Assembly: GCA_002441125.1 (NCBI GenBank)
Contig: DJVI01000028.1
Coordinates: 35,377-99,376 of the forward strand
Direction: 5' to 3'
DNA from: a candidate division WOR-3 bacterium UBA6260
GTDB lineage: Bacteria > Hydrothermota > 32-111
DNA: 64,000 bases
The translations under genes and the position numbers were made by a program. Positions 1-50,135 of the stretch are shown here, in pieces. The notes under the pieces were generated by a model. That model worked only from the letters and a program-made list of their open reading frames with translations. It was not told where the DNA came from and made no database searches. How positions within the stretch are numbered: position 1 is the first letter of the stretch; each line of letters begins with the position of its first letter.

Positions 1-244
1 TTATTATTATTATAGAAACATCAGGGTAAAAATGTTTAAGCTCAGGCAGATACTCTAATCCAGTTCTGTCAGGTAATTTAACATCAAGTAAAATAAGGTC
101 TATCGAATTTTTTTCTAAAATTTGAAACATCTCTTTTCCATTTGACGATTTAAAAACATTGTACCTGTTTTCAAGAAGTATCTCTCCAACAGATTCAAGA
201 ATGAAAGGATCATCGTCAACTATCAAAACATTCTTCATATTCAT
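1..244 (-). CDS. Response regulator receiver-domain protein. The N-terminus is in the window; the gene runs off the window start.
   Basis: The reverse complement of 1-244 translates as MNMKNVLIVDDDPFILESVGEILLENRYNVFKSSNGKEMFQILEKNSIDLILLDVKLPDRTGLEYLPEL... with the receiver DD and phospho-acceptor-like D in LDV. A GGAGG RBS lies 4-10 nt upstream of the ATG at 244/238. The reading frame stays open to position 1. Confidence 0.7.
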   Translation of the reverse strand, partial: MNMKNVLIVDDDPFILESVGEILLENRYNVFKSSNGKEMFQILEKNSIDLILLDVKLPDRTGLEYLPELKHFYPDVSIIII

Positions 245-252
245 AAGACCTC

Positions 253-1311
253 CTATATCGTAGGCAAAGGAAGAACAACTTTTATTTCGGTTCCGTTTTC
301 ATAATCTTTCATCAACAATTTTCCAGAAACATTTTCAATATCGAATTTTATAGAGTTAACAGTCAGAAGGTCAGACCTGCTATTTTCATCATCTTGCTCT
401 GCAAGTCTCTCAATATCTGTTTTAAAATTTGTGTTGAAAATTAAATTTATGTTATCATCGAAAAGAGAAAAACTTATCGATACTTTGTTCCCTTTAACTT
501 TTTCACTTCTGTGAAAAAGAAGAAGCATCAGTTCAAGGAAAATATATTTCAAAAATCCATGTGGTAACTTTACAGGCGGGATCTTTTTGTCATAAGAGTA
601 TTCAATTTCAACATTATGGTTTATAAAATAATCTTTTATTATAGGTAAAAATTTTACAGTTTCATCCTCGATGTTGACAAGTTCCATCCTTTCAGAGATA
701 CCGAGTTTAAGTTCCCTTACAGTTGATACTATAGAAACTATCCTATCAACATTCTGCTCGATCATATCTATCTTTTTATGCAACTCCTTTGGGCAACTCT
801 TATCCAATCTCAACATATCGAGTTGAAGGATTATAGATGTAACAGGGTTATTTATCATATGACTTATACTTGATATCAATTCCCCAGCTACTGAAAGTTT
901 TGAAATTTTCCCAATTTCATGTTGTAAAGAGGACATACTCTCACAGGAAAATATATAATTTCTGATTCCAACCAATTTTTCACTCTTATATTCAAACTCT
1001 CTCTCAAAATCCTCTTCACTTATAAAATCTAAATAGGGAAATTCAAAAAGTTTTTCATACTCGTAAATATCCTCATCTTTTTTTAAAATTACAAGAATAG
1101 GGATCTTCAAATAAAAAAACTTTTTTAAAAGATTTGTATTTTCTAAAATTTTTCCGTTTTCAGATGAAGTTAAAATTATGTCTATTTTCACCTCACTACA
1201 AATCTTATCTATTTGACTGAAATCATCTTCAAATATTAAGTTGTTTTCACCCAATTTTTTAGATTTTAATATATTATCCTGCTGTACATTGAAAAGTATT
1301 ATCTGTTTCAT
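253..1311 (-). CDS. Histidine-kinase-like signalling protein. Degenerate N-terminal receiver-like domain, a HisKA H-box, and a divergent ATP-binding region.
   Basis: The H-box is SISHMINNPVTSI (compare AHEINNPL). The C-terminal region has the length of HATPase_c, but the N box lacks Asn (LELMLLLFHRS) and the G1/G2 Gly motifs are degenerate. The N-terminal 100 aa are receiver-like without the DD pair. It overlaps its neighbour by 4 nt. Confidence 0.6.
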   Translation of the reverse strand: MKQIILFNVQQDNILKSKKLGENNLIFEDDFSQIDKICSEVKIDIILTSSENGKILENTNLLKKFFYLKIPILVILKKDEDIYEYEKLFEFPYLDFISEEDFEREFEYKSEKLVGIRNYIFSCESMSSLQHEIGKISKLSVAGELISSISHMINNPVTSIILQLDMLRLDKSCPKELHKKIDMIEQNVDRIVSIVSTVRELKLGISERMELVNIEDETVKFLPIIKDYFINHNVEIEYSYDKKIPPVKLPHGFLKYIFLELMLLLFHRSEKVKGNKVSISFSLFDDNINLIFNTNFKTDIERLAEQDDENSRSDLLTVNSIKFDIENVSGKLLMKDYENGTEIKVVLPLPTI

Positions 1312-2573
1312 AAAATTCCCTCCTCTATTTCACTTTCAGCTATATACCTTATCATATCTTTTGAAATGTCATTTGTATACAATTTTGGTAAATAGGAATC
1401 GTTACGATCTATAAGTTCAACTATCCTTTTAAAATTTTCTTTCGAAGATTTTTTCTTCCCTTCCATTTTATCTATAAGAGCAATATAGTAGAGAGAATAT
1501 ATATTGTTTGGGTTTTGTGCTAATGTTTTTTGAAAATAGAGTTTCGCTATAGAATAGTTCAATCTGTTAAAGTAATATGTACCAAGAATAAAATCGAAAT
1601 CAGGGTCTTTTATCCCATTCAATTCTAACTGTTTTTCAAGAAATTCTATTTTCATAATATCGTTCTGTCTTGTAAATATAAGAAGCATCAATTTTAAAAT
1701 TTCAACACTCATCAGATCATCTTTTCCCAAAAGTGCCTGTAAAATACCTAAAGATTCATTGTATTTTTTCTCCTTGAAAAAATTTAAAGCATCCTCAAAA
1801 GTATAATCTGATACTAAAAATTCATCACTCTCTGGTTTTTTGAAGTAGAATAACCCTTCAGAACCCACCTGCTCGAACAAACCGGTTGAAAAGATGTTCA
1901 TCTCCTTAAAATCCGATACAATATAACCACCACCTTTCAGCAACCTGTAACTCTCTTTTGAAAAATTTACCAACCTATCTTTCAAAAATATTTTGGCAAA
2001 ATTGTTTACAATAATCATATCAAAAAATTCACTCTTTATAGAGTTATTAAAGGGATTTGAGACTATAAAATTTATTCTGTTTAAAAGGTCTGTTCTTATA
2101 GTGTAATTTTCTATCATATCAATAAAATACTTAAGTTCATCATCGTTTGCTTTTATAAGTTGTTGGTATTCTATCTTCCCATTTTTTATCCTATCAACAA
2201 TAAAAAATGATGGATAAACTGCAAAATAGTTTACATTTTTCCTTTTCTTTAGGTTCTTTAAAATCAGTTCACAATCTATTACGAATGAAAGCAAAGAACT
2301 ACCTATATCTGATGAGAAAATGAGGATGTTCAAATTATCCTTTTCAAGATTTTCAAAAATATTTTTTGTAACTTTTTTGATATCCTCATTTTCAAAAAAG
2401 AGGTTTTGATAATTGTAAAGTGCGAAAAGTATCTTTTCAAAATCTTCTTTTGTCTGTATCTTTCCGAGGTTGTAAAGATCATGGATTTTAACATTCAAAG
2501 ATGTTGTTATGTTTATATTGAAAGAGTTCTGTAAAATATCTATTATCTCAATAACAGTTTTGGGAATCAACAT
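1308..2573 (-). CDS. CheR-like SAM-dependent methyltransferase with C-terminal TPR repeats
   Basis: MTase-fold motifs are LNILIFSSDIGSS (compare RIWSAGCSTGEE), FDMIIVNNFAKIFL (compare FDLIFCRNVLIYF) and YRLLKGGGYIVSDFKE (compare LKPGGYLFLGHSE). The C-terminus has TPR-like repeats (AKLYFQKTLAQNPNNIYSLYYIALI). It overlaps both neighbours. Confidence 0.6.
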   Translation of the reverse strand: MLIPKTVIEIIDILQNSFNINITTSLNVKIHDLYNLGKIQTKEDFEKILFALYNYQNLFFENEDIKKVTKNIFENLEKDNLNILIFSSDIGSSLLSFVIDCELILKNLKKRKNVNYFAVYPSFFIVDRIKNGKIEYQQLIKANDDELKYFIDMIENYTIRTDLLNRINFIVSNPFNNSIKSEFFDMIIVNNFAKIFLKDRLVNFSKESYRLLKGGGYIVSDFKEMNIFSTGLFEQVGSEGLFYFKKPESDEFLVSDYTFEDALNFFKEKKYNESLGILQALLGKDDLMSVEILKLMLLIFTRQNDIMKIEFLEKQLELNGIKDPDFDFILGTYYFNRLNYSIAKLYFQKTLAQNPNNIYSLYYIALIDKMEGKKKSSKENFKRIVELIDRNDSYLPKLYTNDISKDMIRYIAESEIEEGIL

Positions 2574-4672
2574 TTCCCCCTTTTTAAGATATTTTTAACT
2601 CTCAACAAAACCTTCTGAGGATCGATAGGTTTTGTTATATAGTCATCAGCACCTTTTGTAAGTCCCTCTATTTCATTTTCAGAATCAGATTTTGAAGTGA
2701 GAACAACAACAGGGATATTGGATAGATTTTCATCATTTTTAATCCTTTCGAGAAGTTCAAATCCTCCCATCTGGGGCATAGACAAGTCTGTGATAACAAG
2801 ATCAACATTTTTGCTGTTCAATATTTCTAAAGCCTCTTTACCATTTTCAGCTTCTAATGTTAAAAAACCTTCAGATTTAAAAAGTGCACTAATTACTGTT
2901 CTTATCGTTTTTACATCATCAACAACAAGAATACTCTTTCCCTTTTCACCCCTTTCTTTTTTTTCTACACAGTAAGAGATTTCATCCTCAACAAGAAACC
3001 TGTCCACATCAAGAACCCTTTCAATTTCGCTGAAAGTCGTTATACCTTTTTTTACTTTATCGAGTCCATCATTAAAAACAGTTTTATAATTTATACTCTT
3101 GAGATAAGAAACTATCTCATTCAAATTTGTTCCCTTCTCAATAAGTTCTCTCAACTTCTGATCTATTTCTAAAACTCCAAAAATTCCAATTATCCCTGAA
3201 AATCCGGTATAGTTACATTTTTCACATCCATTTTTGTTCTCTTCAAAGATTTCAAAATTCTCATCCACTTTTAAAATCTTTCTTACCTTTTCATCAGGCT
3301 TGATTTTATGTGAACAAAATTTACAAACTTTTCTGACTATCCTCTGTGCTATAACAACAAGTAAAGCGTCAGCTATAAGATATGGCTCAACACCTAAATC
3401 TTTCAACCTTATTAGAGTTGATACTTCACTGTTTGTGTGAAGAGTTGAAAGTAAAAGATGACCTGTGATAGCCCCTTTGAATGCGGTTTGTGCTGTTTCA
3501 GTATCTCTTATTTCACCTAGCAGTATAACATTTGGATCCTGCCTTAACAGAGTTCTTAAAGCTGAAGAGAAAGTAACATTGTTTTTAGGATCTATCTGTG
3601 TCTGATTTATACCTTTAATAGTGTACTCTATGGGGTCCTCAATAGTTGTGATGTTTAAATGTTTATAGTCAAGTTCCTGTAAAATAGAATACAGTGTAGT
3701 TGTTTTCCCACTTCCAGTTGGACCTGTGACAAGAATTATTCCCTGCGATTTTGCCGTGTTTTTCCTGATGATTTTAATATTCTCTTCTGTTAATCCAAGT
3801 TGTTCTAACGAAACTTTTATTTTACTTTTATCAAGAATCCTAATAACTACTTTTTCCCCATCCATTATTGGAATTGTAGAAACCCTTAAAGAGATATCTT
3901 TCTGGGAAACAACTATCTGTATATTTCCATCCTGTGCTTTTCTTGTAATAGTTATATCCATTTTAGCCATAATTTTTATTCTTGAAATTACTCTTTTTTC
4001 TATCTTTTTTGGTAACCTCAAGTGCTCCTGTAAAAATCCATCTATCCTGTATCTAACGATAAGGTTACTTGCCTGTGGTTCAAAATGTATATCTGAAGCG
4101 TTCAACTTTATAGCATCTATAATTATAGAGTTTATAAGTCTAACTATAGGTTTAGCACTTATTTCATCATCCTCTACTACCTCTTCTTCAATATTTTCAT
4201 AATCATCTATTTTAAGTATATTCTCATCAAGTTCATAAGAGAATTTTTCCTGTCCAAAAATTTCAACAAATTTGTTTTCAATGTTTTCTGAAGTAGTTAC
4301 ATAAATGTCTACATCAAGACCTGTTATAAACTGAATATCTTTAATGAGTTCAAGATTAAAAGGATTATCAGAAACTATCTTTAAAGTTTTTTGGGAAAGT
4401 TCAAAAGGAATAAATCTATTTTTCTTAATGTAAGAAGGTATGAAAAGAGATAATAAACCTTCAGTTATTTGAACTTCTTTCAAATCAACATAACCTACCT
4501 TAAAATTCTCCTCAATTAACTTTGCGAGTTTTTCATCTACCTTTAACTTTCCCTCATATAAAAGGTTTGTAAAAAATTTTATCTGATCAAAACTTTTTGA
4601 TTCACTCTCTTTCTGATAGAGTTTAAATATTTCAGGAAAGTTTTTTAAATAATCAATTATTTGTTCTTTCAT
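2567..4672 (-). CDS. GspE/PilB-family type II/IV secretion ATPase, with an N-terminal T2SSE_N domain and a C-terminal response-regulator receiver domain
   Basis: Walker A is LVTGPTGSGKTTTLYSIL. The Asp box is NITTIEDPIEY. Walker B is ILLGEIRDTETA. The His box is GHLLLSTLHTN. The tetracysteine motif is CKFCSHK...CEKCNYTGF. The C-terminal 120 aa read ILVVDDVKTIRTV...VDLVITDLSMPQMGG...VVVLTSKSD...ADDYITKP, a canonical receiver domain. Confidence 0.85.
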   Translation of the reverse strand: MKEQIIDYLKNFPEIFKLYQKESESKSFDQIKFFTNLLYEGKLKVDEKLAKLIEENFKVGYVDLKEVQITEGLLSLFIPSYIKKNRFIPFELSQKTLKIVSDNPFNLELIKDIQFITGLDVDIYVTTSENIENKFVEIFGQEKFSYELDENILKIDDYENIEEEVVEDDEISAKPIVRLINSIIIDAIKLNASDIHFEPQASNLIVRYRIDGFLQEHLRLPKKIEKRVISRIKIMAKMDITITRKAQDGNIQIVVSQKDISLRVSTIPIMDGEKVVIRILDKSKIKVSLEQLGLTEENIKIIRKNTAKSQGIILVTGPTGSGKTTTLYSILQELDYKHLNITTIEDPIEYTIKGINQTQIDPKNNVTFSSALRTLLRQDPNVILLGEIRDTETAQTAFKGAITGHLLLSTLHTNSEVSTLIRLKDLGVEPYLIADALLVVIAQRIVRKVCKFCSHKIKPDEKVRKILKVDENFEIFEENKNGCEKCNYTGFSGIIGIFGVLEIDQKLRELIEKGTNLNEIVSYLKSINYKTVFNDGLDKVKKGITTFSEIERVLDVDRFLVEDEISYCVEKKERGEKGKSILVVDDVKTIRTVISALFKSEGFLTLEAENGKEALEILNSKNVDLVITDLSMPQMGGFELLERIKNDENLSNIPVVVLTSKSDSENEIEGLTKGADDYITKPIDPQKVLLRVKNILKRGKC

Positions 4673-6068
4673 ATTCTCCTATAAAATTTATAAATTTTTC
4701 AACTAAATCTTTTTGAAAATATTTGTCAGATAACTTTTGCAGATTTTCAAAAGCGTTGTTTTTCCCAACACCATCTCTATAATTCTTATTCTCTGTGAGA
4801 AGTATATAAGTATGAACAAGTTTAATTATCTGTGACTCGATTGGGATCTGGGCACCTTGCAATCTTTTTGGGAAACCAGTGCCATCATAATTTTCACTTA
4901 TAGATCCGATTATAGGTTCAAGTTCCTTTAAAAACTCTATATCCTCAATAACATTTTTGAATTTTTCTGAAACCTCTTTTGAACTACTCTTTTTATCTTT
5001 CCCAAAAGATTGTATTATATCAAAAAGAATAGATGAATATTTTATCTTTTCTATAATTTCCTCATCTAATTTCAAAAAAGAAGAAAAATCTTCACAATAT
5101 TTAGATTTTTTCTCTATTAACCTTTTTTGATTGCTATCCGATAAACCTGTAAGAGTAAGCATAGTGTATATAATACCATACCTTGTTGACTTCAACTTTT
5201 TGTTTAATTTTATTTCATAGTATTTGTGTGATAAAACAAAAGATAAAACTTCTGCGATTTCAAGATCCGTATCAAGAAAATCATTTTCCCTTTTTAAGTA
5301 AACAACTCCCAAAATATCATTCTCATAACTCATAACTGATGTCATAGATTTTGAACCAGCAAAAATACAACCAATATTGTTTTTTACCGGTATGAAAAAT
5401 ATTGGTAACTTTGGATCCACTTTTTCACCAACTTTAAATTCACCAACAGAAGGACCAACTATCTCTTTAAAAAAGTCATCCTCTTTTACAAAAAAATATA
5501 TAAACTGTGTTAAAAAAATTTTTGAAAATTCAAGGTAAGATATTTTAAATAGAGTTTCTATATCATCTATCTTAGAAATCTTTTTTTGGAACCGTTTCAA
5601 AAGTATCAACCTCTCAATAACTTTTCTCGATTCATCACTCTCCGGATTTTTTTCCTTCTTGTTAATAATATCTGCAATTATTTTTTTATTCTCAAGCAAA
5701 CTGTTCCTCTTGTTGATAGCACTTTTCAATGCGTTCATAACCTGATTAACATGTAAAGGTTTGGGGATATAATCGAAAGCGCCATATTGCAAAGCTTCAA
5801 TAGAAGTTGAGAGGGAAGCGTATGCAGTCATAACTATTACCTGAATATCACTATCAATCTCCTTAACATTTTTTAAGATATTAAGACCTGAAATGTCTGG
5901 AAGTATTATATCTGTAAATACAATATCTGGTGGATTGTTTGTTATATAATTCATAGCCGAAGTACCATCATAAAAAGCAAGACATTCATAATCTGAAGAA
6001 TAGTTGTTCAAAGCATCCTTTAAAGAGTTTGCAAGATCTTTGTTGTCATCAATAATCAAAACCCTCAT
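4653..6068 (-). CDS. Response-regulator protein with an N-terminal receiver domain and a C-terminal HD-GYP-like domain (GYP half conserved, HD motif degenerate)
   Basis: The receiver domain reads MRVLIIDDNKD...DIVFTDIILPDISG...VIVMTAY...FDYIPKP. The C-terminus carries ENYDGTGFPKRLQGAQIPIESQIIKLVHTY plus a distal AFENLQKLSDKYFQKDLVEKF, matching the HHERxDGSGYPxGLxGExIPLxxRI part of HD-GYP. In the upstream half, LHDIGK is replaced by ILFDI. Start chosen at the ATG (MRV) preceded by GGAGG. The ORF-track start at 6191 adds an unlikely 41-aa leader. Confidence 0.6.
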   Translation of the reverse strand: MRVLIIDDNKDLANSLKDALNNYSSDYECLAFYDGTSAMNYITNNPPDIVFTDIILPDISGLNILKNVKEIDSDIQVIVMTAYASLSTSIEALQYGAFDYIPKPLHVNQVMNALKSAINKRNSLLENKKIIADIINKKEKNPESDESRKVIERLILLKRFQKKISKIDDIETLFKISYLEFSKIFLTQFIYFFVKEDDFFKEIVGPSVGEFKVGEKVDPKLPIFFIPVKNNIGCIFAGSKSMTSVMSYENDILGVVYLKRENDFLDTDLEIAEVLSFVLSHKYYEIKLNKKLKSTRYGIIYTMLTLTGLSDSNQKRLIEKKSKYCEDFSSFLKLDEEIIEKIKYSSILFDIIQSFGKDKKSSSKEVSEKFKNVIEDIEFLKELEPIIGSISENYDGTGFPKRLQGAQIPIESQIIKLVHTYILLTENKNYRDGVGKNNAFENLQKLSDKYFQKDLVEKFINFIGEYERTNN

Positions 6069-6256
6069 CTTCCTTTGCACAATTCCTCCTTTTACACCTA
6101 TTATATACAAAAAAAATGCCAAATATAAGTGTAACAATTTCATTATGTTATGATTATATGACATTCTGGATTTTTTTAAATTGAGAATCATTTACAATTA
6201 AGTATTTGTTTTTATAGACTTATAGTTTGTAAAAAGAATTTGCAAAAGTCATAATT

Positions 6257-6973
6257 TTATGACACATTCAAAGTTTCAGAAACAAGATAACATTTTCTTA
6301 ATACTAAAGATTTCAAAAATGTATTTGTTTCGCAACTTTTTTTAAGTTCATCAATGTTTAAATTCGTTTTCAATATTAATTTTTTATTTTGTGGTAAACT
6401 TTCTAACTTCTTTATTATCAAGAAGTTATTAAAAATATTTAAAGTTTCAATTTGGATGTAACAATTTGTTCCATCCATTTTTTCAAAATCGATATTTTCA
6501 AGATCTTCAATTTTTATCTTTTTTAAACTTTTAAAAATTTTGATTTCTGGGATTTTGGTTAAAAGTAAAATATTCTTTTCCATCCTGCCATCATTCAAAA
6601 AATTTTCAATTATAAATTTATACTCCTCTATCTCTTTAAGTATCCTATCAAGTTGTTCATAATGAAAAGGTTTCTCTATTATATAATTTACATTAAGTTC
6701 TTTTAAAAGATCCTTTATTTTTTGATTCGGACTTGCGGTAACAACAATAAAAGTTAAAAATAGTTCCATCCTTTTTAACTGATTTATTATATTTATACCA
6801 TAGTTCGAACCCAAGAAGATATCTATTATAAGAACATCAAGAGTTTCAATCTCGTTAGACTTTATGAAAAGAGGATGTTTATTCAAAAGGTAAACTTCAT
6901 GTTTTTTTAAAATAAGAATATCTTTTAAAGCGTTTGCAAAAGTTTCATTATCCTCAATTAATCCTATCTTCAT
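6257..6973 (-). CDS. Response regulator receiver protein with an uncharacterised C-terminal domain
   Basis: The sequence MKIGLIEDNETF...LDVLIIDIFLGSNYG...FIVVTAS...NYIIEKP is a receiver domain. An AAGGAG RBS lies 5 nt upstream of the ATG at 6973. The C-terminal ~120 aa have no motif I can assign. Confidence 0.6.
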   Translation of the reverse strand: MKIGLIEDNETFANALKDILILKKHEVYLLNKHPLFIKSNEIETLDVLIIDIFLGSNYGINIINQLKRMELFLTFIVVTASPNQKIKDLLKELNVNYIIEKPFHYEQLDRILKEIEEYKFIIENFLNDGRMEKNILLLTKIPEIKIFKSLKKIKIEDLENIDFEKMDGTNCYIQIETLNIFNNFLIIKKLESLPQNKKLILKTNLNIDELKKSCETNTFLKSLVLRKCYLVSETLNVS

Positions 6974-7090
6974 AATTACTCCTTTTTTTTCTAATTCAGT
7001 TAAACACATTATTTGTGCCAAACTAAATTATTATTTTTTATAACTTAAAGTTAATAAAAAGTTATGAACACATTACAAATGTTTAAAATG

Positions 7091-7118
7091 TTGACAATTT
7101 GGTTTTAAAGTTTATTAT
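7091..7118 (+). promoter_or_regulatory. Sigma-70-type promoter (TTGACA-16 nt-TATTAT) that abuts the transporter start codon, possibly producing a leaderless mRNA
   Basis: TTGACA at 7091-7096 and TATTAT at 7113-7118. The ATG is at 7126, with no RBS in between. Confidence 0.4.
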
Positions 7119-7125
7119 CCTAATT

Positions 7126-8031
7126 ATGACAGGAGTAATTTTTCTTTCTATTTCGGTTCTACTATTTTCAACGATGGAGATAAGTTCTAAATTTATTTCT
7201 AAAGATTTCAACTTTTTACAGTTAACTTTTTTGAGATTTTTTTTTGGTATTTTCATATTCATATTTTTTATTCTCTTAAATAAAGATTTAAAGAAAGAGC
7301 TGGGAAATTTAAAAATAAAAAATTTTTTAAAAATATCCTCTTTGGGTTTTATAAATGTTTTTCTTTCAATGGTTCTCCTCCAGTATTCTGTTGAGAAAGG
7401 AAACGCTTCGGTTGCAGCTGTTCTTATAGGAAGCCATCCTATATTCGTATACATTTTAAATTTAATATTTTTAAAAGAGTTTGATAAAGTTAAACTTTTT
7501 AAAATATTAATTGGTATATTGGGGATATCTTTTCTTTTAATATTTTTTAAAAAACTCAACAGGATAGATTATCTATCATATTTTGCTGGGCTTTTATCAT
7601 CATTTTTCTTTGCACTTTTTACCTTCCTTTCAAAAAGATTTTTAAAGGATAACTCTCCGGTTATAACTAATTTCATATCTTTCTTCTCTGGAATTTTATT
7701 CCTATCCCCATTTTTCTTTTACCAAAAAAATTATCTTTTAAATTTGAACTCTTTTAACATCCCTTTTTTGTTATACCTCGGATTTTTCGTTACAGGATTT
7801 GGATACCTTTTATATTATGAAGGTTTCAAAAGGTTGAATGTTGTTGATGGTTCTATGCTATTCTTTTTAAAGCCATTTATAGCAACATTACTTTCAATCA
7901 TCCTTTTAAAAGAAAAATTGACCTCAAGTCAGATTTTTGGAATATTTTTGATAATCTTATCCTTAACAGATTTTAAAAAGGGAATTAAAATTGAAAGCTA
8001 TAACAGAATCAAAAAAGATAATCATAGTTGA
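7126..8031 (+). CDS. EamA/DMT-family (drug/metabolite transporter) permease
   Basis: About ten hydrophobic segments with the two-fold EamA-like architecture. The track start is TTG at 7099; I prefer the ATG at 7126 (MTGVIFLSISVLL). Confidence 0.65.
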   Translation: MTGVIFLSISVLLFSTMEISSKFISKDFNFLQLTFLRFFFGIFIFIFFILLNKDLKKELGNLKIKNFLKISSLGFINVFLSMVLLQYSVEKGNASVAAVLIGSHPIFVYILNLIFLKEFDKVKLFKILIGILGISFLLIFFKKLNRIDYLSYFAGLLSSFFFALFTFLSKRFLKDNSPVITNFISFFSGILFLSPFFFYQKNYLLNLNSFNIPFLLYLGFFVTGFGYLLYYEGFKRLNVVDGSMLFFLKPFIATLLSIILLKEKLTSSQIFGIFLIILSLTDFKKGIKIESYNRIKKDNHS

Positions 8032-8584
8032 AAAAAATTCTACATTTATAGGTAGAGGATTTTTCGTAAAAGATAAGAATGATGTTGAAAAGTTTATTTC
8101 ATCATTAAGAAATGAGGAGAAGGGATATACACATATAGTTTATGCTTACAGATTAACATCTAACGAATTCTATTATACTGATGACAGAGAGCCTAAAAAT
8201 TGTGCGGGTCTTCCTGTTTACAATGTTATCGAAAAGAATGAACTTTTCTTTTCACTAATCACTGTAATAAGATTTTTTGGCGGGATAAAACTCGGTGCAT
8301 CAGGCCTTGTTAGAGCATATTCAAAATGTGCTATAGAAACTTTAAAAAATTCTATTATAAAGGAACTTGAGAATTTTTATCTTTTAGAGATTTCAGCTGA
8401 CTACAACGAATACAACAAAATTTTACATCTGATAGAAAGGACAAAACATAAAATTTTATTTGAAGATTTCAAAGAAAAGGTTAAAGCAAAAATTTATGTT
8501 AACGATGAAACTTTATCAAAGATAGAAAAGATCTATCCAGACTCTTTTGAAATTTTGGATAAAGATATTCTTCTTCCCTACTGA
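7991..8584 (+). CDS. yigZ: YigZ/IMPACT-family protein (UPF0029)
   Basis: STFIGRGFFVKD...YTHIVYAYRL...DDREPKNCAGLPVYNVI...VIRFFGGIKLGASGLVRAY matches the IMPACT N-domain signature (xVxRYFGGxKLGxGGLxRAY). The TTG start overlaps the upstream transporter by 41 nt. Confidence 0.8.
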   Translation: MKAITESKKIIIVEKNSTFIGRGFFVKDKNDVEKFISSLRNEEKGYTHIVYAYRLTSNEFYYTDDREPKNCAGLPVYNVIEKNELFFSLITVIRFFGGIKLGASGLVRAYSKCAIETLKNSIIKELENFYLLEISADYNEYNKILHLIERTKHKILFEDFKEKVKAKIYVNDETLSKIEKIYPDSFEILDKDILLPY

Positions 8585-9615
8585 TTCATCTTTTTCAAAA
8601 GTGAAAGTATAGATCTCCTTGAAAATGGCTTTTTTAAAAGAGGTATTTTAAACTCTCTGATTATCCTTTTCACTTCAGCTGGTATAGAATAACCTGTTAT
8701 AAAAACGAATTTTATTTCTGGATAACTTTTTCTGACAAGATGGAAAACTTCTGATCCTGATTCGTTCTTAATCCTTATATCACAGAATATTATAGAAATC
8801 CTCTCTTTTCCTTTTTCTATGATTTCGATAGCATCCTTTATATTTTCAGATTGTATTGTTTCTATACCTTCCTCATTCAAAACATCTATTATAGACTCTC
8901 TAACCTCATCTTCATCATCTATAATAAGAACCTTTTCAGATGTTGCTGATGGAGGTAGTTTTAGCATTTTCGAATCATCAGTGTATGGAACAAGCTCAGG
9001 GTCATGTTCATGTAAAACAGCGAACCTTTTTAGTATATCGTTTATCTTGTTCAAACTATTCTTTATCCTCTCTATCAGTTTCTTCTCTTTGTCTGTTAAC
9101 TTGTTTCCCATTCTTTTTTCAAGCATCTCTGTAGATAGAAGTATTACTGAAAGTGGTTGGTTCAATTCGTGATGCATCGTTATGACCGATGCTTTTATTA
9201 TGTTCATCTTAGCAAGTTTTACACTATCCTTCATATCCTCTATCATCTTTAAAATTATTCTTATCCTTGAATCGAGTTGGTTTATATCTATAGGTTTGTA
9301 TATGTAATCAACAGCACCAGCTTCAAGACCTTCAGCAACAGTTGCTGTATCTGTTAGGTGTGAAAGGAAAATTACAGGGATCTCTTTTAACTGTTCATCT
9401 TCCTGTATATCCTTGCAGATATCTATTCCGTTGAATTCATTAAGATCTATATCCAAAATTATTATGTCAGGTAAAAACTCTTTGATCCTTTTTATGCATT
9501 TGTTTGGGTCATTATCTGCATAAACTACATAGCCTAAAGAACTGAGAGATTTGCTAACAAAGGTTGTAACAGTTATACTGTCATCGAGAAGATAAACCCT
9601 AATTTTATTTTTCAT
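8578..9615 (-). CDS. REC-HisKA-REC phosphotransfer protein: two receiver domains flanking a HisKA-like dimerisation/phospho-His domain, with no ATPase domain
   Basis: N-terminal receiver: VYLLDDS...IIILDIDLNEFNG...FLSHLT...VDYIYKP. H-box: ITMHHELNQPLSVI. C-terminal receiver: VLIIDDEDEV...IIFCDIRIKNESG...FVFITGYS...LLKKP. There is no HATPase_c between them. Confidence 0.7.
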   Translation of the reverse strand: MKNKIRVYLLDDSITVTTFVSKSLSSLGYVVYADNDPNKCIKRIKEFLPDIIILDIDLNEFNGIDICKDIQEDEQLKEIPVIFLSHLTDTATVAEGLEAGAVDYIYKPIDINQLDSRIRIILKMIEDMKDSVKLAKMNIIKASVITMHHELNQPLSVILLSTEMLEKRMGNKLTDKEKKLIERIKNSLNKINDILKRFAVLHEHDPELVPYTDDSKMLKLPPSATSEKVLIIDDEDEVRESIIDVLNEEGIETIQSENIKDAIEIIEKGKERISIIFCDIRIKNESGSEVFHLVRKSYPEIKFVFITGYSIPAEVKRIIREFKIPLLKKPFSRRSILSLLKKMNQ

Positions 9616-9965
9616 TTTCCCCCCCTTAATATGTTTATAACTTCATTCAGATTCCTCTTTATCTCCCCTTTTAAATAATTCTTTTCATTTTCGAAATCAA
9701 GGTTTAACTGAACAATTTCAACTTTTGAATTCATAACTTCATTAGCTCCTTTTATTGTATATTTTTTTTCATAAAGCAGTTCTTTGATTTTTTTTACAGT
9801 TTCTATATCCTTTTCAGTATACATCCTTCTTCCATTTACAGAATGTTTCAGAGGTTTTAACTTAGGGAAGACTGTCTCCCAATACCTCAAAACATAACTT
9901 CTAAGACCTGTCATCTGCGAAACTTCCTTTATTGAATAGTATCTTTTTTTATATTCTGTTTTCAT
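9612..9965 (-). CDS. MerR-family HTH transcriptional regulator
   Basis: YSIKEVSQMTGLRSYVLRYWETVF matches the MerR N-terminal HTH (helix-turn-helix, then RYWE). It is 117 aa and overlaps the upstream gene by 4 nt. Confidence 0.75.
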   Translation of the reverse strand: MKTEYKKRYYSIKEVSQMTGLRSYVLRYWETVFPKLKPLKHSVNGRRMYTEKDIETVKKIKELLYEKKYTIKGANEVMNSKVEIVQLNLDFENEKNYLKGEIKRNLNEVINILRGGK

Positions 9966-10569
9966 TTCCCTTAATCAATCTCTCAATGTTACTTTTATGT
10001 TTTAAAATTATAAAAGCAACAACAAGGATTATTAATAAAAAATCTATATTTGAAAATTTTTTAAAAGGAAAAGTAATATTTAAAAGTTTTCCCATAACGA
10101 AGTAAACTATTGGAAAGAAGAAAGCTGAAATAATAGTTCCAACAGCAACAATCCTTGTTGTTATAACAGAAATCAAAAAAAATATTGCACAAACTAAAAT
10201 TTCGAATGGAAAGAGAACGATAAAACTTCCAAAGGAAGTTGCAGCACCTTTCCCACCTTTGAATTGTAGGTATGGTGTAAACATATGACCTAAAACGGTT
10301 GATATCGCAACTATTGTTGATATTTCAAGATTTTTATCAAAATAGAAAACTGAAATCAAGGTTGGGATAAAACCTTTCATAAAATCAAGAACAAATACAG
10401 GTATACCATACTTCCATCCACCTATCCTGTAAACATTTGTGGCTCCAACATTACCACTACCAACCTTTCTGATGTCTGTCTTCAAAAAAAATTTCGAAAC
10501 GATAAAAGCAAAAGGAATACCTGAAAATAGATATGATAAAAGACAAAATATTATTATCTTAACTATCAT
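9949..10569 (-). CDS. plsY: Glycerol-3-phosphate acyltransferase PlsY
   Basis: SGNVGATNVYRIGGWKYGIPVFVLDFMKG matches the PlsY signature. Five TM segments, ~200 aa. Confidence 0.9.
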   Translation of the reverse strand: MIVKIIIFCLLSYLFSGIPFAFIVSKFFLKTDIRKVGSGNVGATNVYRIGGWKYGIPVFVLDFMKGFIPTLISVFYFDKNLEISTIVAISTVLGHMFTPYLQFKGGKGAATSFGSFIVLFPFEILVCAIFFLISVITTRIVAVGTIISAFFFPIVYFVMGKLLNITFPFKKFSNIDFLLIILVVAFIILKHKSNIERLIKGNENRI

Positions 10570-13089: not shown

Positions 13090-13676
13090 TATTTTAAAAA
13101 GAGATTGTTTAATCTATAAAAAAATTTTATCAACTCATACCCTGAGATTGTGTTATAAGGATTGAAATATCCATCAGCGACATCCATAATCCCCAAAAAT
13201 ACTACATTTGAAATAGGTTTGTATGCGAAAAATTTCTCATCAACATCCTTAATATCTACAACATTCATTTTAAAATTAGAAAGGAAACCGTTGCTCAAAA
13301 TAAAGTTATAAAAAAATACTGCAAGTTGGTATCTTAAAACAGGAGTATCAGGTTTAAATGTACTATCTGGAAGTGGTGTGAAAATTCCCCTTTTTACCTG
13401 TGCATACAGAATCTCACTTTTGGGAAACATTTTTATATCGAATGGTATTTCATTTTTATAAACAAAAATCTCTTCTGGGAAATATATTCCAAAAAGGTAA
13501 GCTACATCACTTTTAGTAACAACATCCTTTTTTTCTAAACCTTTCAAAAATTGATACTCTTTATCAGCTTTACTAATAAATAATGAAAGGTATCTGTCAT
13601 TTTTTGGGAAACAACCGGAAAGTATAATTAAAAAAATTAAAATGATAAAAGGATAAAATTTTTTCTTTAAATACAT
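13089..13676 (-). CDS. Lipoprotein of unknown function
   Basis: The start at MYLKKKFYPFIILIFLIILSGC gives a signal peptide plus lipobox Cys. The longer ORF in the track (to 13889) would read through the tRNA genes, so I rejected it. Confidence 0.5.
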   Translation of the reverse strand: MYLKKKFYPFIILIFLIILSGCFPKNDRYLSLFISKADKEYQFLKGLEKKDVVTKSDVAYLFGIYFPEEIFVYKNEIPFDIKMFPKSEILYAQVKRGIFTPLPDSTFKPDTPVLRYQLAVFFYNFILSNGFLSNFKMNVVDIKDVDEKFFAYKPISNVVFLGIMDVADGYFNPYNTISGYELIKFFYRLNNLFLK

Positions 13677-13685
13677 ATTTATAAG

Positions 13686-13771
13686 TGCCGGAGGCCGGAC
13701 TCGAACCGGCACGGGATTGAAGTCCCAGCGGATTTTAAGTCCGCTATGTCTACCAATTCCATCACTCCGGC
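13686..13771 (-). tRNA. tRNA-Leu (anticodon TAA), with a long variable arm
   Basis: Reverse complement: GCCGGAG-TG-ATGGAATTGGTAGACAT-A-GCGGA-CTTAAAA-TCCGC-TGGGACTTCAATCCCGTG-CCGGTTCGAGTCCGG-CCTCCGGC-A. A 7-bp acceptor stem, an anticodon loop with TAA, and a long extra arm. Confidence 0.85.
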
Positions 13772-13774
13772 ATA

Positions 13775-13846: not shown

Positions 13847-13859
13847 AAGAAAAAAATGG

Positions 13860-27241: not shown

Positions 27242-27242
27242 T

Positions 27243-41676: not shown

Positions 41677-41684
41677 ACCAACTC

Positions 41685-48731: not shown

Positions 48732-50135
48732 TTACCTCCTGAGAGTCCCTTTCCTCTTTGAGGAAGGGAGAATATTTAAATTTTCTCTGTATTTAGCAAC
48801 CGTTCTTCTTGCAATTTTAATAGAATATTTTTCTTCAAGTATTTTAACAAGATCTAAATCTGAGTAAGGATTGTTTGGGTCCTCTTTTTCAATCTCCTCT
48901 TTGATTATATTCATAATATTCTTGTTTGAAACCTCAAAACCTGAATTGTTTTTAACTCCTTTTGAAAAGAAAAATTTTAAAGGAAAAATACCTGAAGGAG
49001 TATCCATATATTTATTCTCTATAGCTCTTGAAACTGTTGCTTCATGCATTCCTATATGACCTGCTATATCGCTTAAAGTTAAAGGTTTCAACGAAGAGAT
49101 ACCGTTAAAGAAAAAATCTTTTTGAACAGCGATAATTCTTTCAGATATCTTTAAAAGTGTATTGTTCCTTCTATATATCCCTTCTAAAAGGAATAACGCC
49201 GCATTGAATTTATTTTTTAAAAATCTTTTTTCTTCCTGTGAAAGGTTTTCTTTGTTTTTGTACATATCAAAATAACTTTTGCTAAGATGAACTTCCGGAA
49301 ATGATTGAAGGTTCAAAGATACATAAAGTTCTTCTCCCCTCTGCTCTACAATAACATCTGGTATTATGTAATCAGTACTCTTCCCCCAAACCCCATTAGC
49401 AGGCTTTGGATTTAGACTTTTTATTGACTCTAAAGCTTTTTCAAGTTTACTTCTTGTTATTTTGAGTTTATTTTCTATTATATACAATTTGTTTGTTAAA
49501 AACTCCTCATAGAACTCTTTTATAATTCTGTATTCCAATGTTTCTTCTTTCTTTTGGTTTTCGAGTTGGGTAAGTAAAACTTCTTGAACACTCCTGCTTC
49601 CTATTCCAACAGGTTCAAAAAACTTGTACTTTGAGTGAACATACTCAACCTTTTCAAGCGGAAGTTTTAGATTCTCAGCTAATTCAGACAAAGAGATTTC
49701 CAAAAGTCCATCATCGGAAAGTGAAAAAGTTATCTCTTCTGCAATTTTTATCTCATCTGGATCATCGAAAAAAATATGTGATTGTGTCAGAAGATAATCT
49801 TGCAAATTTTCAGGCTCCTCAACATTCGAAATCGGATCGAACTCTTCATCCTCTCTGTTATACCTCTCAGATGGCAGAGAAGCTTTTTTCCACTCATCAT
49901 GAAAAAAATACTCATAATCTATCTCATCCTTTAAAGGGAGCTCAGGTTCAACCTCCTCATAGGAGACATCTTCCTCCTCAAGTATATCATCAGTTAAAAA
50001 CGGATTCTGTTCTATTTCATTTGTTATAACCTGTTGTAATTCAAGTAATGGCAGTTGCAATATCTTTACAAGAGTTAGAAGTTGAGGGGTTAATTTAATC
50101 TCCTGTCTTAAAGAGGTTTCAAGTTTTTGTTTCAT
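48732..50135 (-). CDS. rpoN: RNA polymerase sigma-54 factor
   Basis: N-terminal Gln/Leu-rich activator-interaction region (LTPQLLTLVKILQLPLLELQQ). C-terminal RpoN box ARRTVAKYRE. Confidence 0.92.
   Translation of the reverse strand: MKQKLETSLRQEIKLTPQLLTLVKILQLPLLELQQVITNEIEQNPFLTDDILEEEDVSYEEVEPELPLKDEIDYEYFFHDEWKKASLPSERYNREDEEFDPISNVEEPENLQDYLLTQSHIFFDDPDEIKIAEEITFSLSDDGLLEISLSELAENLKLPLEKVEYVHSKYKFFEPVGIGSRSVQEVLLTQLENQKKEETLEYRIIKEFYEEFLTNKLYIIENKLKITRSKLEKALESIKSLNPKPANGVWGKSTDYIIPDVIVEQRGEELYVSLNLQSFPEVHLSKSYFDMYKNKENLSQEEKRFLKNKFNAALFLLEGIYRRNNTLLKISERIIAVQKDFFFNGISSLKPLTLSDIAGHIGMHEATVSRAIENKYMDTPSGIFPLKFFFSKGVKNNSGFEVSNKNIMNIIKEEIEKEDPNNPYSDLDLVKILEEKYSIKIARRTVAKYRENLNILPSSKRKGTLRR

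What the first reader, a model, noticed from the sequence alone, without database searches (positions are those of the whole stretch)
1..7021. Six-gene operon of receiver-domain signalling proteins built around an orphan GspE/PilB-type ATPase
Six consecutive minus-strand genes are packed with stop/start overlaps at 1308-1311, 2567-2573 and 4653-4672, so they are almost certainly co-transcribed. In order of transcription they encode:
- REC plus an unknown C-terminal domain.
- REC plus a degenerate HD-GYP.
- GspE/PilB ATPase plus REC.
- CheR-like methyltransferase plus TPR.
- Pseudo-receiver plus HisKA plus a degenerate ATPase domain.
- A stand-alone REC, cut by the window edge.

Four or five receiver domains, one H-box protein, a methyltransferase and a secretion-type hexameric ATPase appear together. 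No MCP, CheA or CheW genes are present. No PilC/GspF platform, PilM/N/O, pilin or secretin genes occur anywhere in the 64 kb. I do not recognise this combination as a described system. It looks like a phosphorelay that gates a mechano-ATPase, or one that uses the ATPase as an output or sensor.
Basis: partly seen in the sequence, partly recalled or inferred. Interest (0 to 1): 0.75.

Follow-up and report, generated by a model that had tools for sequence, protein, structure and literature searches.

The report
Phosphorelay operon containing a receiver-fused PilB ATPase
An uncultured WOR-3 bacterium carries a conserved signalling gene cluster, apparently switched on by its own sigma-54 activator, whose unusual member is a pilus/secretion-type motor ATPase with a built-in phosphorylation switch; that fusion is widespread in nature but I found no description of it.

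Summary
Window 1-7021 (minus strand) carries six packed genes with the stated overlaps and mostly the stated domains.

- The window is 100% identical to a longer contig. There the edge-cut "stand-alone REC" is an NtrC-type sigma-54 activator, followed by a membrane hybrid kinase (PAS-PAS-HisKA-HATPase-REC-REC, no Hpt).
- This seven-gene block recurs in five WOR-3 lineages. One has 40% GC and different flanks.
- Conserved -24/-12 sigma-54-like elements precede genes 1 and 2. rpoN lies in the window.
- Several domains are degenerate: the HD-GYP, the kinase ATP-binding domain, the MshEN c-di-GMP motifs and the CheR-like domain, which lacks the catalytic Arg.
- The ATPase keeps all its catalytic motifs and an intact receiver.
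- MshEN-T2SSE-REC proteins occur in many phyla. Three lineages place them in type IV pilus operons; six others, plus WOR-3, place them among kinases only.

Best reading: a sigma-54-autoregulated phosphorelay. The kinase-dead DHp protein passes phosphate to four receivers, one of which gates a PilB-type motor whose pilus genes lie elsewhere. I could not check whether the genome has those genes.

Verdict: a new variant of a known kind, of moderate interest.

The parts
7005..7020 (-). Sigma-54-type -24/-12 promoter-like element upstream of gene 1 (TGGCACAAATAATGTG)
   Evidence: It is the only match to its pattern in 64 kb (pattern chosen post hoc). The same element sits at the same position in four other orthologous loci: TGGCACATATAATGTA (L001), TGGCATAAATAATG (L093), TGGTATAAATTATGTT (L004) and TGGTATCAATTATGCA (L005). 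The -12 dinucleotide is GT in the window and GC in the higher-GC relative L005.
6257..6973 (-). Gene 1: response regulator, REC plus a lineage-specific alpha/beta C-terminal domain of about 100 aa with unknown function (238 aa from ATG 6973)
6146..6163 (-). Imperfect palindrome TGTCAT-N6-ATAACA about 25 nt upstream of the -24 element; candidate binding site for the enhancer-binding protein
   Evidence: TGTCAT and TAAC are invariant blocks in the five-locus alignment of an otherwise 68%-identical AT-rich spacer. The function is inferred.
6106..6121 (-). Sigma-54-type -24/-12 promoter-like element upstream of gene 2 (TGGCATTTTTTTTGTA)
   Evidence: It is a unique match in the window. TTGGCA and the -12 T.G are invariant, with fixed spacing, in five orthologous loci; L005 has TCGC at -12.
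4653..6080 (-). Gene 2: REC + middle domain + degenerate HD-GYP (475 aa from GTG 6080)
   Evidence: Pfam gives REC (E = 1.6e-26) and HD_5 covering profile positions 73-166 only. In alignment with a canonical REC-HD-GYP, HD is SD, HHE is SEN and GYP is GFP.
2567..4672 (-). Gene 3: MshEN - T2SSE (PilB/GspE-family hexameric ATPase) - C-terminal REC, 701 aa
   Evidence: Pfam gives T2SSE at 418 bits, REC at 107 bits and MshEN at 54 bits. Walker A, Walker B, His box, the cysteine cluster and the receiver residues D586/D629/T659/K681 are conserved in a 26-sequence alignment. It scores 512 bits against TIGR02538 PilB and 504 bits against TIGR02533 GspE, both below cut-off. The MshEN_N c-di-GMP motifs are degenerate.
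1308..2573 (-). Gene 4: divergent CheR-like domain (probably inactive) + TPR, 421 aa
253..1311 (-). Gene 5: pseudo-receiver + DHp (HisKA, H151) + ATP-binding-dead CA-like domain, 352 aa; candidate histidine phosphotransferase
   Evidence: Pfam finds HisKA only. H151 in SHMINNP is invariant. There is no N-box Asn, no G1 DxGxG and no G2, and the acceptor Asp of the N-terminal REC-like domain is absent in all four orthologues.
1..238 (-). Gene 6 (N-terminus only in the window): NtrC-type sigma-54 enhancer-binding response regulator, 459 aa in full
   Evidence: L089 is 100% identical to the window. It shows REC + Sigma54_activat (240 bits) + AAA_lid + HTH_8, with GAFTGA at residue 217. Gene 7, the hybrid kinase, lies beyond the window (L089 12450-15425).
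48732..50135 (-). rpoN (sigma-54), the trans-acting factor needed by the predicted promoters and by gene 6
   Evidence: Pfam gives Sigma54_AID, Sigma54_CBD and Sigma54_DBD. It lies next to an LptB-like ABC ATPase gene.

Best explanation
The locus is a conserved, WOR-3-specific signalling module of seven genes. A monocistronic response-regulator gene is followed by a six-gene operon, and each unit sits behind a sigma-54-type promoter.

**Proposed flow** (anatomy shown; direction of phosphate inferred)
1. A membrane hybrid kinase senses a signal and autophosphorylates. Its architecture is 5-6 TM segments, PAS-PAS, an intact HisKA/HATPase and two receivers. It has no Hpt.
2. The kinase passes the phosphate to its own receiver.
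3. The 352-aa protein keeps the DHp histidine but has lost every ATP-binding motif. It acts as the histidine phosphotransferase (ChpT/Spo0B-like), or possibly as a phosphatase.
4. It distributes phosphate to four receivers:
   - the NtrC-type activator, which with sigma-54 drives the module's own promoters (positive feedback) and probably other targets;
   - the PilB/GspE-family ATPase, whose C-terminal receiver gates hexamer activity or recruitment;
   - the REC-degenerate HD-GYP protein;
   - the REC-unknown-domain protein.
5. The last two, and the CheR-TPR-derived pseudo-methyltransferase, act as non-catalytic adaptors or phosphate sinks.

The ATPase is most likely the extension motor of a type IV pilus-like filament whose structural genes lie elsewhere in the genome. 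Pilus assembly would then be switched by phosphorylation in cis. Other bacteria do this in trans with PilG/PilH or PixG.
For: **The block is a conserved unit**
- The same seven genes, in the same order, occur in L001-3, L093, L004 and L005.
- Protein identities to L005 fall to 29-70%.
- L005 has 40% GC and different flanking genes.

**Packing**
- Genes overlap by 20, 7, 4 and 4 nt, or are separated by a 14-nt gap. No minus-strand terminator is predicted.

**Sigma-54 control**
- GG-N10-G(C/T) elements are conserved in position and spacing upstream of genes 1 and 2 in five loci.
- The activator has GAFTGA.
- rpoN is in the window.

**Relay logic**
- The hybrid kinase has intact H, N, G1 and G2 boxes and two receivers, but no Hpt.
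- Gene 5 has an invariant His and no ATP-binding motifs.

**The ATPase looks functional and phosphorylatable**
- All catalytic motifs and the receiver residues D/D/T/K are conserved.

**Link of the ATPase family to pili**
- REC-fused homologues head T4P operons in L006/7, L095 and L096. These operons carry PilD, PilC and pilins; L006/7 and L096 also carry a secretin and PilT, and L096 carries PilM/PilO.
- Unfused intermediates exist: REC-REC-REC-PilB-PilC-pilin-REC in L062 and PilQ-HK-REC-PilB in L053.

**Link of the family to two-component signalling elsewhere**
- L008, L010, L091 (Hpt gene immediately upstream) and L092 (hybrid HK-Hpt, REC-GGDEF, REC-HD-GYP).

**Precedent for receiver control of PilB in trans**
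- Only phosphorylated PixG binds PilB1 (PMC11181946).
- PilG and PilH bias PilB localisation (PMC11656802).
Against: - No PilC, PilD, pilin, PilM/N/O, secretin or PilT lies in the 64 kb window, or within 10 kb of the cluster, in any of the five WOR-3 lineages. Whether these genomes have such genes at all was not testable here.
- The ATPase falls below the NCBIfam cut-offs for both PilB and GspE.
- The direction of phosphotransfer, the role of gene 5 (transferase or phosphatase) and the effect of phosphorylation on the ATPase are all inferred.
- The -12 element reads GT rather than the canonical GC in the low-GC genomes, and the search patterns were chosen after seeing the sites.
- Many genes in this genome overlap, so co-transcription is plausible but not shown.
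Confidence: 0.5

Rival explanations
1. The ATPase has been uncoupled from any filament or secretion machine. It works inside the phosphorelay as a signalling or nucleotide-sensing hexamer, either as an output that remodels protein partners or as an energy-state sensor. Most of its partners are pseudo-enzymes kept as scaffolds.
For: - No machine genes lie near the cluster in five WOR-3 lineages.
- The same lack of nearby machine genes holds in six other lineages: L008, L010, L073, L091, L092 and L094.
- The degenerate HD-GYP, CA, CheR-like and MshEN_N modules suggest a scaffold-type assembly.
- The PilB review has a section on motor-dependent signalling pathways (PMC11656802).
Against: - All catalytic motifs, and the N-terminal domains typical of machine-docking PilB/GspE, are retained.
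- Relatives with the same architecture are plainly pilus motors.
- Motor genes are often unlinked from pilus structural genes, so absence from 10-64 kb says little.
Confidence: 0.2
2. The cluster is a reduced descendant of an "alternative cellular function" chemosensory pathway. Such pathways typically combine CheR-TPR with multidomain response regulators. This one would have lost MCP, CheA and CheW and been rewired to a conventional hybrid kinase. On this reading the CheR-like protein is a relic.
For: - CheR-TPR genes lie predominantly in clusters with multidomain REC proteins (PMC3447774).
- The nearest sequence outgroup of gene 4 is a canonical CheR-TPR.
- The best non-TPR fold matches are CheR structures.
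- L008 has a weak CheR_N-type gene and a methyltransferase gene near its ATPase-REC gene.
Against: - No MCP, CheA or CheW lies in the window or in any orthologous locus.
- The gene-4 family is conserved over 35-90% identity and has invariant residues, so it is under selection and is not decaying.
- This is a statement about history more than a rival mechanism.
Confidence: 0.12
3. The ATPase is a type II secretion GspE rather than a pilus PilB, and the relay controls protein secretion.
For: - NCBIfam scores against GspE (504 bits) and PilB (512 bits) are nearly equal.
- The organism looks diderm: lipid A acyltransferase and LptB-like genes are in the window.
Against: In the operons that contain REC-fused relatives, the neighbours include PilT (L006/7, L096) and PilM/PilO (L096), which mark type IVa pili rather than T2SS.
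Confidence: 0.08
4. The genes are merely neighbours in a compact genome. They belong to several independent two-component circuits that happen to be adjacent.
For: - Nearly all genes in the 64 kb are co-oriented and overlapping, whatever their function.
- Another DHp-only protein (REC-HisKA-REC) sits 1.5 kb upstream in an unrelated-looking operon.
Against: - The seven-gene order is kept at 29-70% protein identity and moves as a block into a different genomic context.
- Three of the families (genes 1, 4 and 5) were seen only with this block.
- The kinase lacks an Hpt, and the cluster supplies a kinase-dead DHp protein.
Confidence: 0.1

Closest known systems
PilB type IVa pilus extension ATPase / GspE (T2SSE, PF00437; TIGR02538, TIGR02533)
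   Same: It shares the MshEN_C/N1 domain, the N2 domain and a C-terminal ATPase with Walker A, Asp box, Walker B, His box and a cysteine cluster. Identity to REC-fused PilBs that head full T4aP operons is 36-39%.
   Different: It carries a C-terminal receiver domain. It scores below both equivalog cut-offs. Its neighbours are signalling genes, not PilC or pilins. Its c-di-GMP motifs are degenerate.
Response-regulator control of PilB in trans: Synechocystis PixG/PixH-PilB1 (PMC11181946) and P. aeruginosa Pil-Chp PilG/PilH (PMC11656802)
   Same: In both, a phosphorylated receiver domain decides whether and where the extension motor acts. Antagonistic extra receivers act as sinks.
   Different: Here the receiver is fused to the motor. 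The input is a hybrid kinase plus a DHp-only protein rather than an MCP-CheA-CheW array. Nothing has been shown experimentally.
Multistep phosphorelays with a kinase-derived phosphotransferase: CckA-ChpT-CtrA/CpdR (Caulobacter) and Spo0F-Spo0B-Spo0A (Bacillus). This comparison rests on my own knowledge.
   Same: Both combine a hybrid kinase lacking an Hpt with a separate DHp + CA-like protein that has lost ATP binding and serves several receivers.
   Different: Gene 5 has an additional N-terminal pseudo-receiver. There is no detectable sequence relationship to ChpT or Spo0B beyond the HisKA fold. The activity is untested, and the residue after the His (M) together with the N at +4 would also fit a phosphatase.
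PilS-PilR and other NtrC-type sigma-54 two-component systems
   Same: Both have a REC-AAA+(GAFTGA)-HTH activator encoded next to its kinase, together with sigma-54 promoters.
   Different: The predicted targets are the module's own genes. No pilin gene is present. The best NCBIfam hits are AtoC, NtrC and the PEP-CTERM regulator, all below cut-off.
CheR-TPR methyltransferases (FrzF, WspC; PMC3447774, PMC2535941)
   Same: Both have an N-terminal helical domain, a class I methyltransferase fold and C-terminal TPRs, and both are encoded among multidomain response regulators.
   Different: The catalytic Arg98 equivalent is Glu. The SAM-binding motif and the acidic residue after beta-2 are lost. There is no MCP, CheA or CheW. 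The family is tiny, at 9 clusters among 1.84 billion representatives.
MshEN c-di-GMP receptor domain and HD-GYP phosphodiesterases (PMC5013675)
   Same: Pfam MshEN and HD_5 hits are present. Wang et al. list REC among the domains found together with MshEN. Deeper relatives (P0004/6/7, P0065/69/75, P0084/89/92) keep both 24-residue motifs.
   Different: In the window's sub-clade the tandem motifs score at most 7 of 11 and lack the canonical spacing. The HD-GYP metal ligands and the Tyr of GYP are replaced. The c-di-GMP link therefore appears to have been lost.

Membership tests
T2SSE secretion/pilus ATPase (PF00437) | Pfam hit above the gathering score; Walker A, Asp box, Walker B, His box and cysteine cluster | tested here: met
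   418 bits against a cut-off of 24.9. GPTGSGKTT, EDPIE, LLGEIRD, HLLLSTLHTN and C453/C483/C486 are conserved in the 26-sequence alignment.
Type IV-A pilus assembly ATPase PilB (TIGR02538 equivalog) | Score at or above the curated cut-off | tested here: not met
   512.4 bits against a cut-off of 675.65.
Type II secretion ATPase GspE (TIGR02533 equivalog) | Score at or above the curated cut-off | tested here: not met
   504.2 bits against a cut-off of 630.25.
Type IV pilus / T2SS machinery | Platform protein (PilC/GspF), prepilin peptidase and pilins encoded in the same genome | not testable with these tools
   They are absent from the 64 kb window and from the 10-kb flanks in five WOR-3 lineages. 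Whole genomes could not be scanned.
MshEN c-di-GMP receptor | Two 24-residue motifs RLGxx(L/V/I)(L/V/I)xxG(L/V/I)(L/V/I)xxxxLxxxLxxQ separated by a 5-residue linker | tested here: not met
   The best windows score 6 and 7 of 11 at the wrong spacing. Relatives P0004/6/7, P0065/69/75 and P0084/89/92 score 9-11 with a 29-residue spacing. The Pfam MshEN hit (54.5 bits) covers only the C-terminal subdomain.
Response regulator receiver (PF00072), ATPase C-terminus | Acidic pair, phospho-acceptor Asp, Thr/Ser and Lys | tested here: met
   106.7 bits. D586, D629 and K681 are invariant; T659 is nearly invariant.
HD-GYP c-di-GMP phosphodiesterase | HD and HHE metal ligands and the GYP motif | tested here: not met
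   HD is SD, HHE is SEN and GYP is GFP. The Pfam HD_5 hit covers only profile positions 73-166 of 170.
CheR glutamate methyltransferase (PF01739) | Pfam gathering score | tested here: not met
   15.7 bits against a cut-off of 27. The hit is sub-threshold in 7 of 9 family members.
CheR glutamate methyltransferase (PF01739) | CheR fold: N-terminal helical domain plus class I methyltransferase | tested here: inconclusive
CheR glutamate methyltransferase (PF01739) | Catalytic Arg98 (FFR motif) and the SAM-binding motifs; Tyr235 was not examined | tested here: not met
   FFR is FFE in the window clade and is not conserved across the family. WSAACSxGxEPY is FSSDIGSSLLSF, and ASDI is YPSF. The catalytic residues are taken from PMC3447774.
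Chemosensory (Che/Pil-Chp/ACF) pathway | MCP, CheA and CheW genes in the cluster | tested here: not met
   None was found in the window or in the orthologous loci.
Sensor histidine kinase (HisKA + HATPase_c), gene 5 | H box plus N, G1 and G2 ATP-binding boxes | tested here: not met
   The H box is present (H151 invariant). The N-box Asn, G1 DxGxG and G2 are absent in all four orthologues, and there is no HATPase_c hit.
Kinase-derived histidine phosphotransferase (ChpT/Spo0B type) | DHp His with a CA-like domain unable to bind ATP, partnered with a hybrid kinase that lacks an Hpt | tested here: met
   The hybrid kinase has two REC domains and no Hpt. Phosphotransfer activity itself is not testable here.
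NtrC-type sigma-54 enhancer-binding protein, gene 6 | REC + AAA+ with a GAFTGA loop + HTH_8 | tested here: met
   Sigma54_activat at 240 bits and HTH_8 at 21.3 bits, just below its 22-bit cut-off. GAFTGA lies at residue 217 and Walker A reads GESGTGKE.
Sigma-54 promoter | -24 GG and -12 GC with fixed spacing, in a genome that has rpoN | tested here: inconclusive
   The -24 TGGCA is perfect and the spacing is fixed. The -12 reads TGT in the low-GC genomes and GC in L005. The elements are conserved in five loci, and rpoN is present. There are no transcript data.

The most novel reading that the evidence does not exclude
A PilB/GspE-family hexameric ATPase has been taken out of the pilus machine altogether. 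It serves as a phosphorylation-gated signalling ATPase inside a phosphorelay assembled largely from pseudo-enzymes: a dead HD-GYP, a dead CheR, a dead kinase ATP-binding domain and a dead MshEN site. On this reading the recurrent kinase-embedded MshEN-T2SSE-REC genes in WOR-3, Omnitrophota and other phyla would be a previously unrecognised class of two-component output.
Probability: 0.2. Interest if true: 0.8.

Novelty: new variant of a known kind. Interest (0 to 1): 0.45.

Why it matters
How bacteria decide when the pilus extension motor fires is an active question. Known controls act in trans, through c-di-GMP, PilZ/FimX, PilG/PilH or PixG.

A motor with its own receiver domain would be the most direct coupling of two-component signalling to a secretion-superfamily ATPase. 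The architecture turns out to be common in uncultured phyla, yet it is absent from a 2024 review of PilB regulation.

The WOR-3 cluster offers a compact test case. It has one kinase, one kinase-dead transfer protein, four receivers and a sigma-54 feedback loop. All of these can be tested in vitro with purified proteins from a thermophile-like, low-GC organism.

It also illustrates how catalytic signalling domains are recycled as scaffolds.

Tried and rejected
1. **Genome-contig scan.** I ran it with the 26-sequence ATPase alignment. It was useful only as a positive control for PilC linkage and for a few extra contexts.
4. **PDB sequence search for gene 4.** It gave TPR hits and one marginal SAM-dependent methyltransferase hit (1vlm, E = 0.16), but no CheR.
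5. **Literature searches.** Searches for WOR-3 pili and for T2SSE as a response-regulator output found nothing relevant.
6. **Ideas considered and dropped.**
   - Gene 5 as an active kinase: it has no ATP-binding motifs.
   - Gene 2 as an active phosphodiesterase: the metal ligands are lost.
   - The ATPase as a c-di-GMP receptor in this sub-clade: the motifs are lost.
   - The cluster as a Che-type pathway: there is no MCP, CheA or CheW.
7. **Terminator and sigma-70 promoter scans.** These were uninformative in 29% GC DNA: 47 promoter-like sites were found against 40 expected.

Full report
**1. What is in the sequence**

The window is about 30% GC, and almost all of its genes lie on the minus strand and are tightly packed.

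Pfam assigns the following:
- gene 1 (6257-7021): REC only;
- gene 2 (4653-6191): REC plus the C-terminal two thirds of HD_5;
- gene 3 (2567-4672): MshEN + T2SSE (418 bits) + REC;
- gene 4 (1308-2573): weak Methyltransf_11 plus TPR;
- gene 5 (253-1311): HisKA only.

Reading the DNA puts the likely starts at ATG 6973 for gene 1 (238 aa, behind AAGGAG) and GTG 6080 for gene 2 (475 aa, behind AAAGGAGGA). These match the gene calls in relatives. They leave a 176-bp AT-rich spacer between genes 1 and 2.

**2. The cluster runs past the window edge**

A public contig (L089) is 100% identical to window 1-11311 and continues for another 9.7 kb.

The gene cut by the edge is not a stand-alone receiver. 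It is a 459-aa REC-Sigma54_activat-AAA_lid-HTH_8 protein with a GAFTGA loop and a Walker A motif.

A 991-aa hybrid kinase overlaps it by 4 nt. The kinase has:
- five to six N-terminal hydrophobic segments;
- two PAS domains;
- HisKA with SHEIRTPL;
- an HATPase_c with intact N, G1 and G2 boxes;
- two receivers, and no Hpt.

**3. Organism and conservation**

Gene 4's product is 100% identical to a UniRef entry from a candidate division WOR-3 bacterium.

The same seven genes, in the same order, occur in at least four further lineages:
- L001-3: ATPase 91% identical;
- L093, on a 1.39-Mb contig: 86%;
- L004: 66%;
- L005: 56%.

L005 has 40% GC and entirely different flanking genes. Its seven-gene order is nonetheless intact, with protein identities of 29-70%.

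This is much better evidence of a functional unit than the overlaps, because overlaps are the rule throughout this window.

Genes 1 and 4 belong to small families seen only in this clade: 7 and 12 hits among 5.8 billion sequences. The N-terminal domain of gene 4 matches only 9 clusters among 1.84 billion representatives.

**4. Promoters**

Upstream of gene 1 (7005-7020) lies TGGCACAAATAATGTG. Upstream of gene 2 (6106-6121) lies TGGCATTTTTTTTGTA. Both have a perfect -24 element and the right spacing for sigma-54 promoters.
- Each is the only match to its pattern in 64 kb. The patterns were chosen after seeing the sites, so the statistics are soft.
- More telling, both elements sit at the same positions, with invariant TTGG.A and fixed spacing, in all five orthologous loci. 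This holds although the spacers are otherwise only 58-68% identical. In the higher-GC L005 the -12 dinucleotide is the canonical GC.
- An imperfect palindrome, TGTCAT-N6-ATAACA (6146-6163), is also conserved upstream of the gene-2 element. It is a candidate activator site.
- rpoN lies in the window at 48732-50135.

I infer that the module is transcribed from sigma-54 promoters, probably under its own NtrC-type activator.

**5. State of each domain**

The ATPase looks functional.
- It keeps Walker A, Asp box, Walker B, His box and the cysteine cluster.
- Its receiver keeps D586, D629, T659 and K681 in a 26-sequence alignment.
- It scores almost equally against the PilB and GspE equivalogs, and below both cut-offs.

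Several other modules are degenerate.
- **MshEN c-di-GMP motifs.** The two 24-residue motifs of MshEN (PMC5013675) score at most 7 of 11, with the wrong spacing, in the window protein and its closest relatives. They score 9-11 of 11, with the canonical 29-residue spacing, in the deeper WOR-3 relatives and in two other lineages.
- **HD-GYP.** HD is SD, HHE is SEN and GYP is GFP.
- **Gene 5.**
  - It keeps an invariant His (SHMINNP).
  - It has no N-box Asn, no G1 and no G2.
  - Its N-terminal REC-like domain lacks the acceptor Asp.
- **Gene 4.** It is distantly CheR-like:
  - Pfam CheR is sub-threshold in 7 of 9 family members;
  - one of its nine remote relatives is a canonical CheR-TPR.

  However, the catalytic Arg98 (PMC3447774) is Glu, and the SAM motifs are altered. 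It is therefore probably not an active glutamate methyltransferase.

**6. Absence of machine and chemotaxis genes**

Three checks found no PilC, PilD, pilin, secretin, PilM/N/O, extra PilT, MCP, CheA or CheW in the 64 kb:
- Pfam scans of nearly all ORFs of 120 aa or more;
- tblastn with a T4P gene set;
- a prepilin-signal scan.

The tblastn set found PilC in 55 of 80 generic PilB loci, so the test has power. None of these genes appears within 10 kb of the cluster in the other WOR-3 loci either.

I could not scan whole genomes. The single genome-collection scan was swamped by generic PilBs.

**7. The ATPase-receiver fusion elsewhere**

MshEN-T2SSE-REC is not rare. Dozens of clusters at 33-42% identity come from Omnitrophota, Nitrospirota, Planctomycetota, Acidobacteriota and others, and some are annotated by JGI as PilB-like/CheY-like.

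Their neighbourhoods fall into two groups.
- **Pilus operons (three lineages).**
  - L006/7: PilD, PilC, pilins, secretin and PilT.
  - L096: the same set plus PilM and PilO.
  - L095: PilC and a pilin, followed by PAS kinases.
- **No machine genes within 10 kb (six other lineages).**
  - Four lie among kinases, receivers and Hpt, GGDEF or HD-GYP proteins: L008, L010, L091 (an Hpt gene directly upstream) and L092 (hybrid HK-Hpt, REC-GGDEF, REC-HD-GYP).
  - L073 has only one neighbouring REC-containing ORF.
  - L094 is isolated.

Unfused intermediates also exist: REC-REC-REC-PilB-PilC-pilin-REC (L062) and PilQ-HK-REC-PilB (L053).

The family is therefore best seen as a PilB-type motor that has captured its regulating receiver. 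It recurrently migrates into two-component clusters.

**8. Mechanism**

The kinase has two receivers and no Hpt. The only other His-bearing protein in the block cannot bind ATP. The economical reading is therefore a multistep relay: kinase His, then kinase Asp, then gene-5 His, then the Asp of four receivers.

The outputs would be:
- transcription, through the NtrC-type activator and sigma-54, including feedback on the module itself;
- the motor ATPase, gated by its receiver;
- two further receivers, on a dead HD-GYP and on an unknown domain. These, together with the CheR-TPR-like protein, would serve as adaptors or sinks.

What is shown:
- the gene content and its conservation;
- the state of the motifs;
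- the promoter-like elements;
- the family's link to pili.

What is inferred:
- the direction of transfer;
- the role of gene 5, where a phosphatase role also fits the M after the His and the N at +4;
- the effect of phosphorylation on the ATPase;
- the existence of a filament.

The nearest experimental precedents act in trans. Only phosphorylated PixG binds PilB1 in Synechocystis (PMC11181946). PilG and PilH bias PilB localisation in Pseudomonas (PMC11656802).

**9. Comparison with what is known, and novelty**

Each part belongs to a known superfamily, and the logic (hybrid kinase, transfer protein, several receivers, sigma-54 feedback) is familiar.

New here:
- the specific, conserved seven-gene WOR-3 module;
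- its reliance on degenerate catalytic domains;
- attention to a widespread ATPase-receiver fusion.

On that fusion, the MshEN paper notes only that MshEN is found associated with REC among other domains. A 2024 review of PilB regulation never mentions a receiver-fused PilB. My text searches found no description of it.

I class the finding as a new variant of a known kind. But the idea of an orphan mechano-ATPase is weakened by relatives that are ordinary pilus motors, and it is unproven without a whole-genome check.

**10. Verdict**

Interest is 0.45.

The most novel reading still open is a pilus-independent signalling ATPase. I give it about 0.2. It would be worth about 0.8 if true, and one HMM scan of the available near-complete MAGs would largely settle it.

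Noticed in passing
window 48732-50135 (-), with 50132-50851 (-): rpoN (sigma-54: AID, CBD and DBD domains) lies directly downstream of an LptB-like ABC ATPase gene. This shows the organism has sigma-54 and bears on the predicted promoters.
   Followed up: partly
window 8578-9615 (-): This is a second DHp-only signalling protein, REC-HisKA-REC with no HATPase_c. Its gene overlaps a MerR-family gene (9612-9965) and follows PlsY and Der/EngA. It is conserved beside the cluster in L001, L004, L089 and L093 but is not seen in L005. It may be another phosphotransfer node of the same network.
   Followed up: partly
L089 15438-16487 and window 52989-54098 (-): Two DUF362 + 4Fe-4S ferredoxin-domain paralogues are present. 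One starts 12 nt after the hybrid kinase gene and overlaps a 654-aa TPR protein gene. These may be co-transcribed with the signalling operon in this sub-clade, but they are not adjacent in L005.
   Followed up: no
window 22281-22988 (-): This 235-aa protein has a double zinc ribbon (DZR_2) and resembles ComF-type proteins of DNA-uptake systems. If it really is ComF, it would hint at competence-pilus genes elsewhere in the genome. It is flanked by tRNA-Leu and by the RodA-PBP2-MreDCB block (22966-28289).
   Followed up: no
window 42268-46745 (-): Three consecutive ORFs of 397, 806 and 292 aa have no Pfam match at E <= 1e-6. They lie just upstream of two tandem PLD-like (PLDc_2) genes at 41107-42296.
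   Followed up: no
window 13089-13889 (-) versus tRNAs at 13685-13932: The mechanical ORF 13089-13889 runs through a tRNA-Leu/Cys/Gly cluster. The real gene is probably the 197-aa version (13089-13682) called in relatives, which has a faint SLH-domain hit on record.
   Followed up: partly
proteins P0008-P0057: A large set of T2SSE proteins about 1,000 aa long, with no receiver domain, scored above most REC-fused relatives. Only one carries a source name (Patescibacteria). Their length suggests an unusual extended or duplicated architecture.
   Followed up: no
L062 7561-14881; L053 5191-12662: Unfused arrangements occur in other phyla: REC-REC-REC-PilB-PilC-pilin-REC (Omnitrophota) and PilQ-HK-REC-PilB (Planctomycetota). 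They look like intermediates between trans-acting receivers and the fused form.
   Followed up: partly
L091 9675-18363: In a genome with an 8.16-Mb contig, the MshEN-T2SSE-REC gene lies between a stand-alone Hpt gene and a 2,036-aa Ser/Thr-kinase-GAF-PAS-histidine-kinase gene. Its MshEN motifs are intact.
   Followed up: no
window 7099-8584 (+): The only plus-strand genes near the cluster are an EamA-family transporter gene and a UPF0029/IMPACT-family (YigZ-like) gene. This divergent pair separates the cluster from the REC-HisKA-REC operon. The EamA ORF overlaps a 158-aa minus-strand ORF (7083-7559), which is probably spurious.
   Followed up: no
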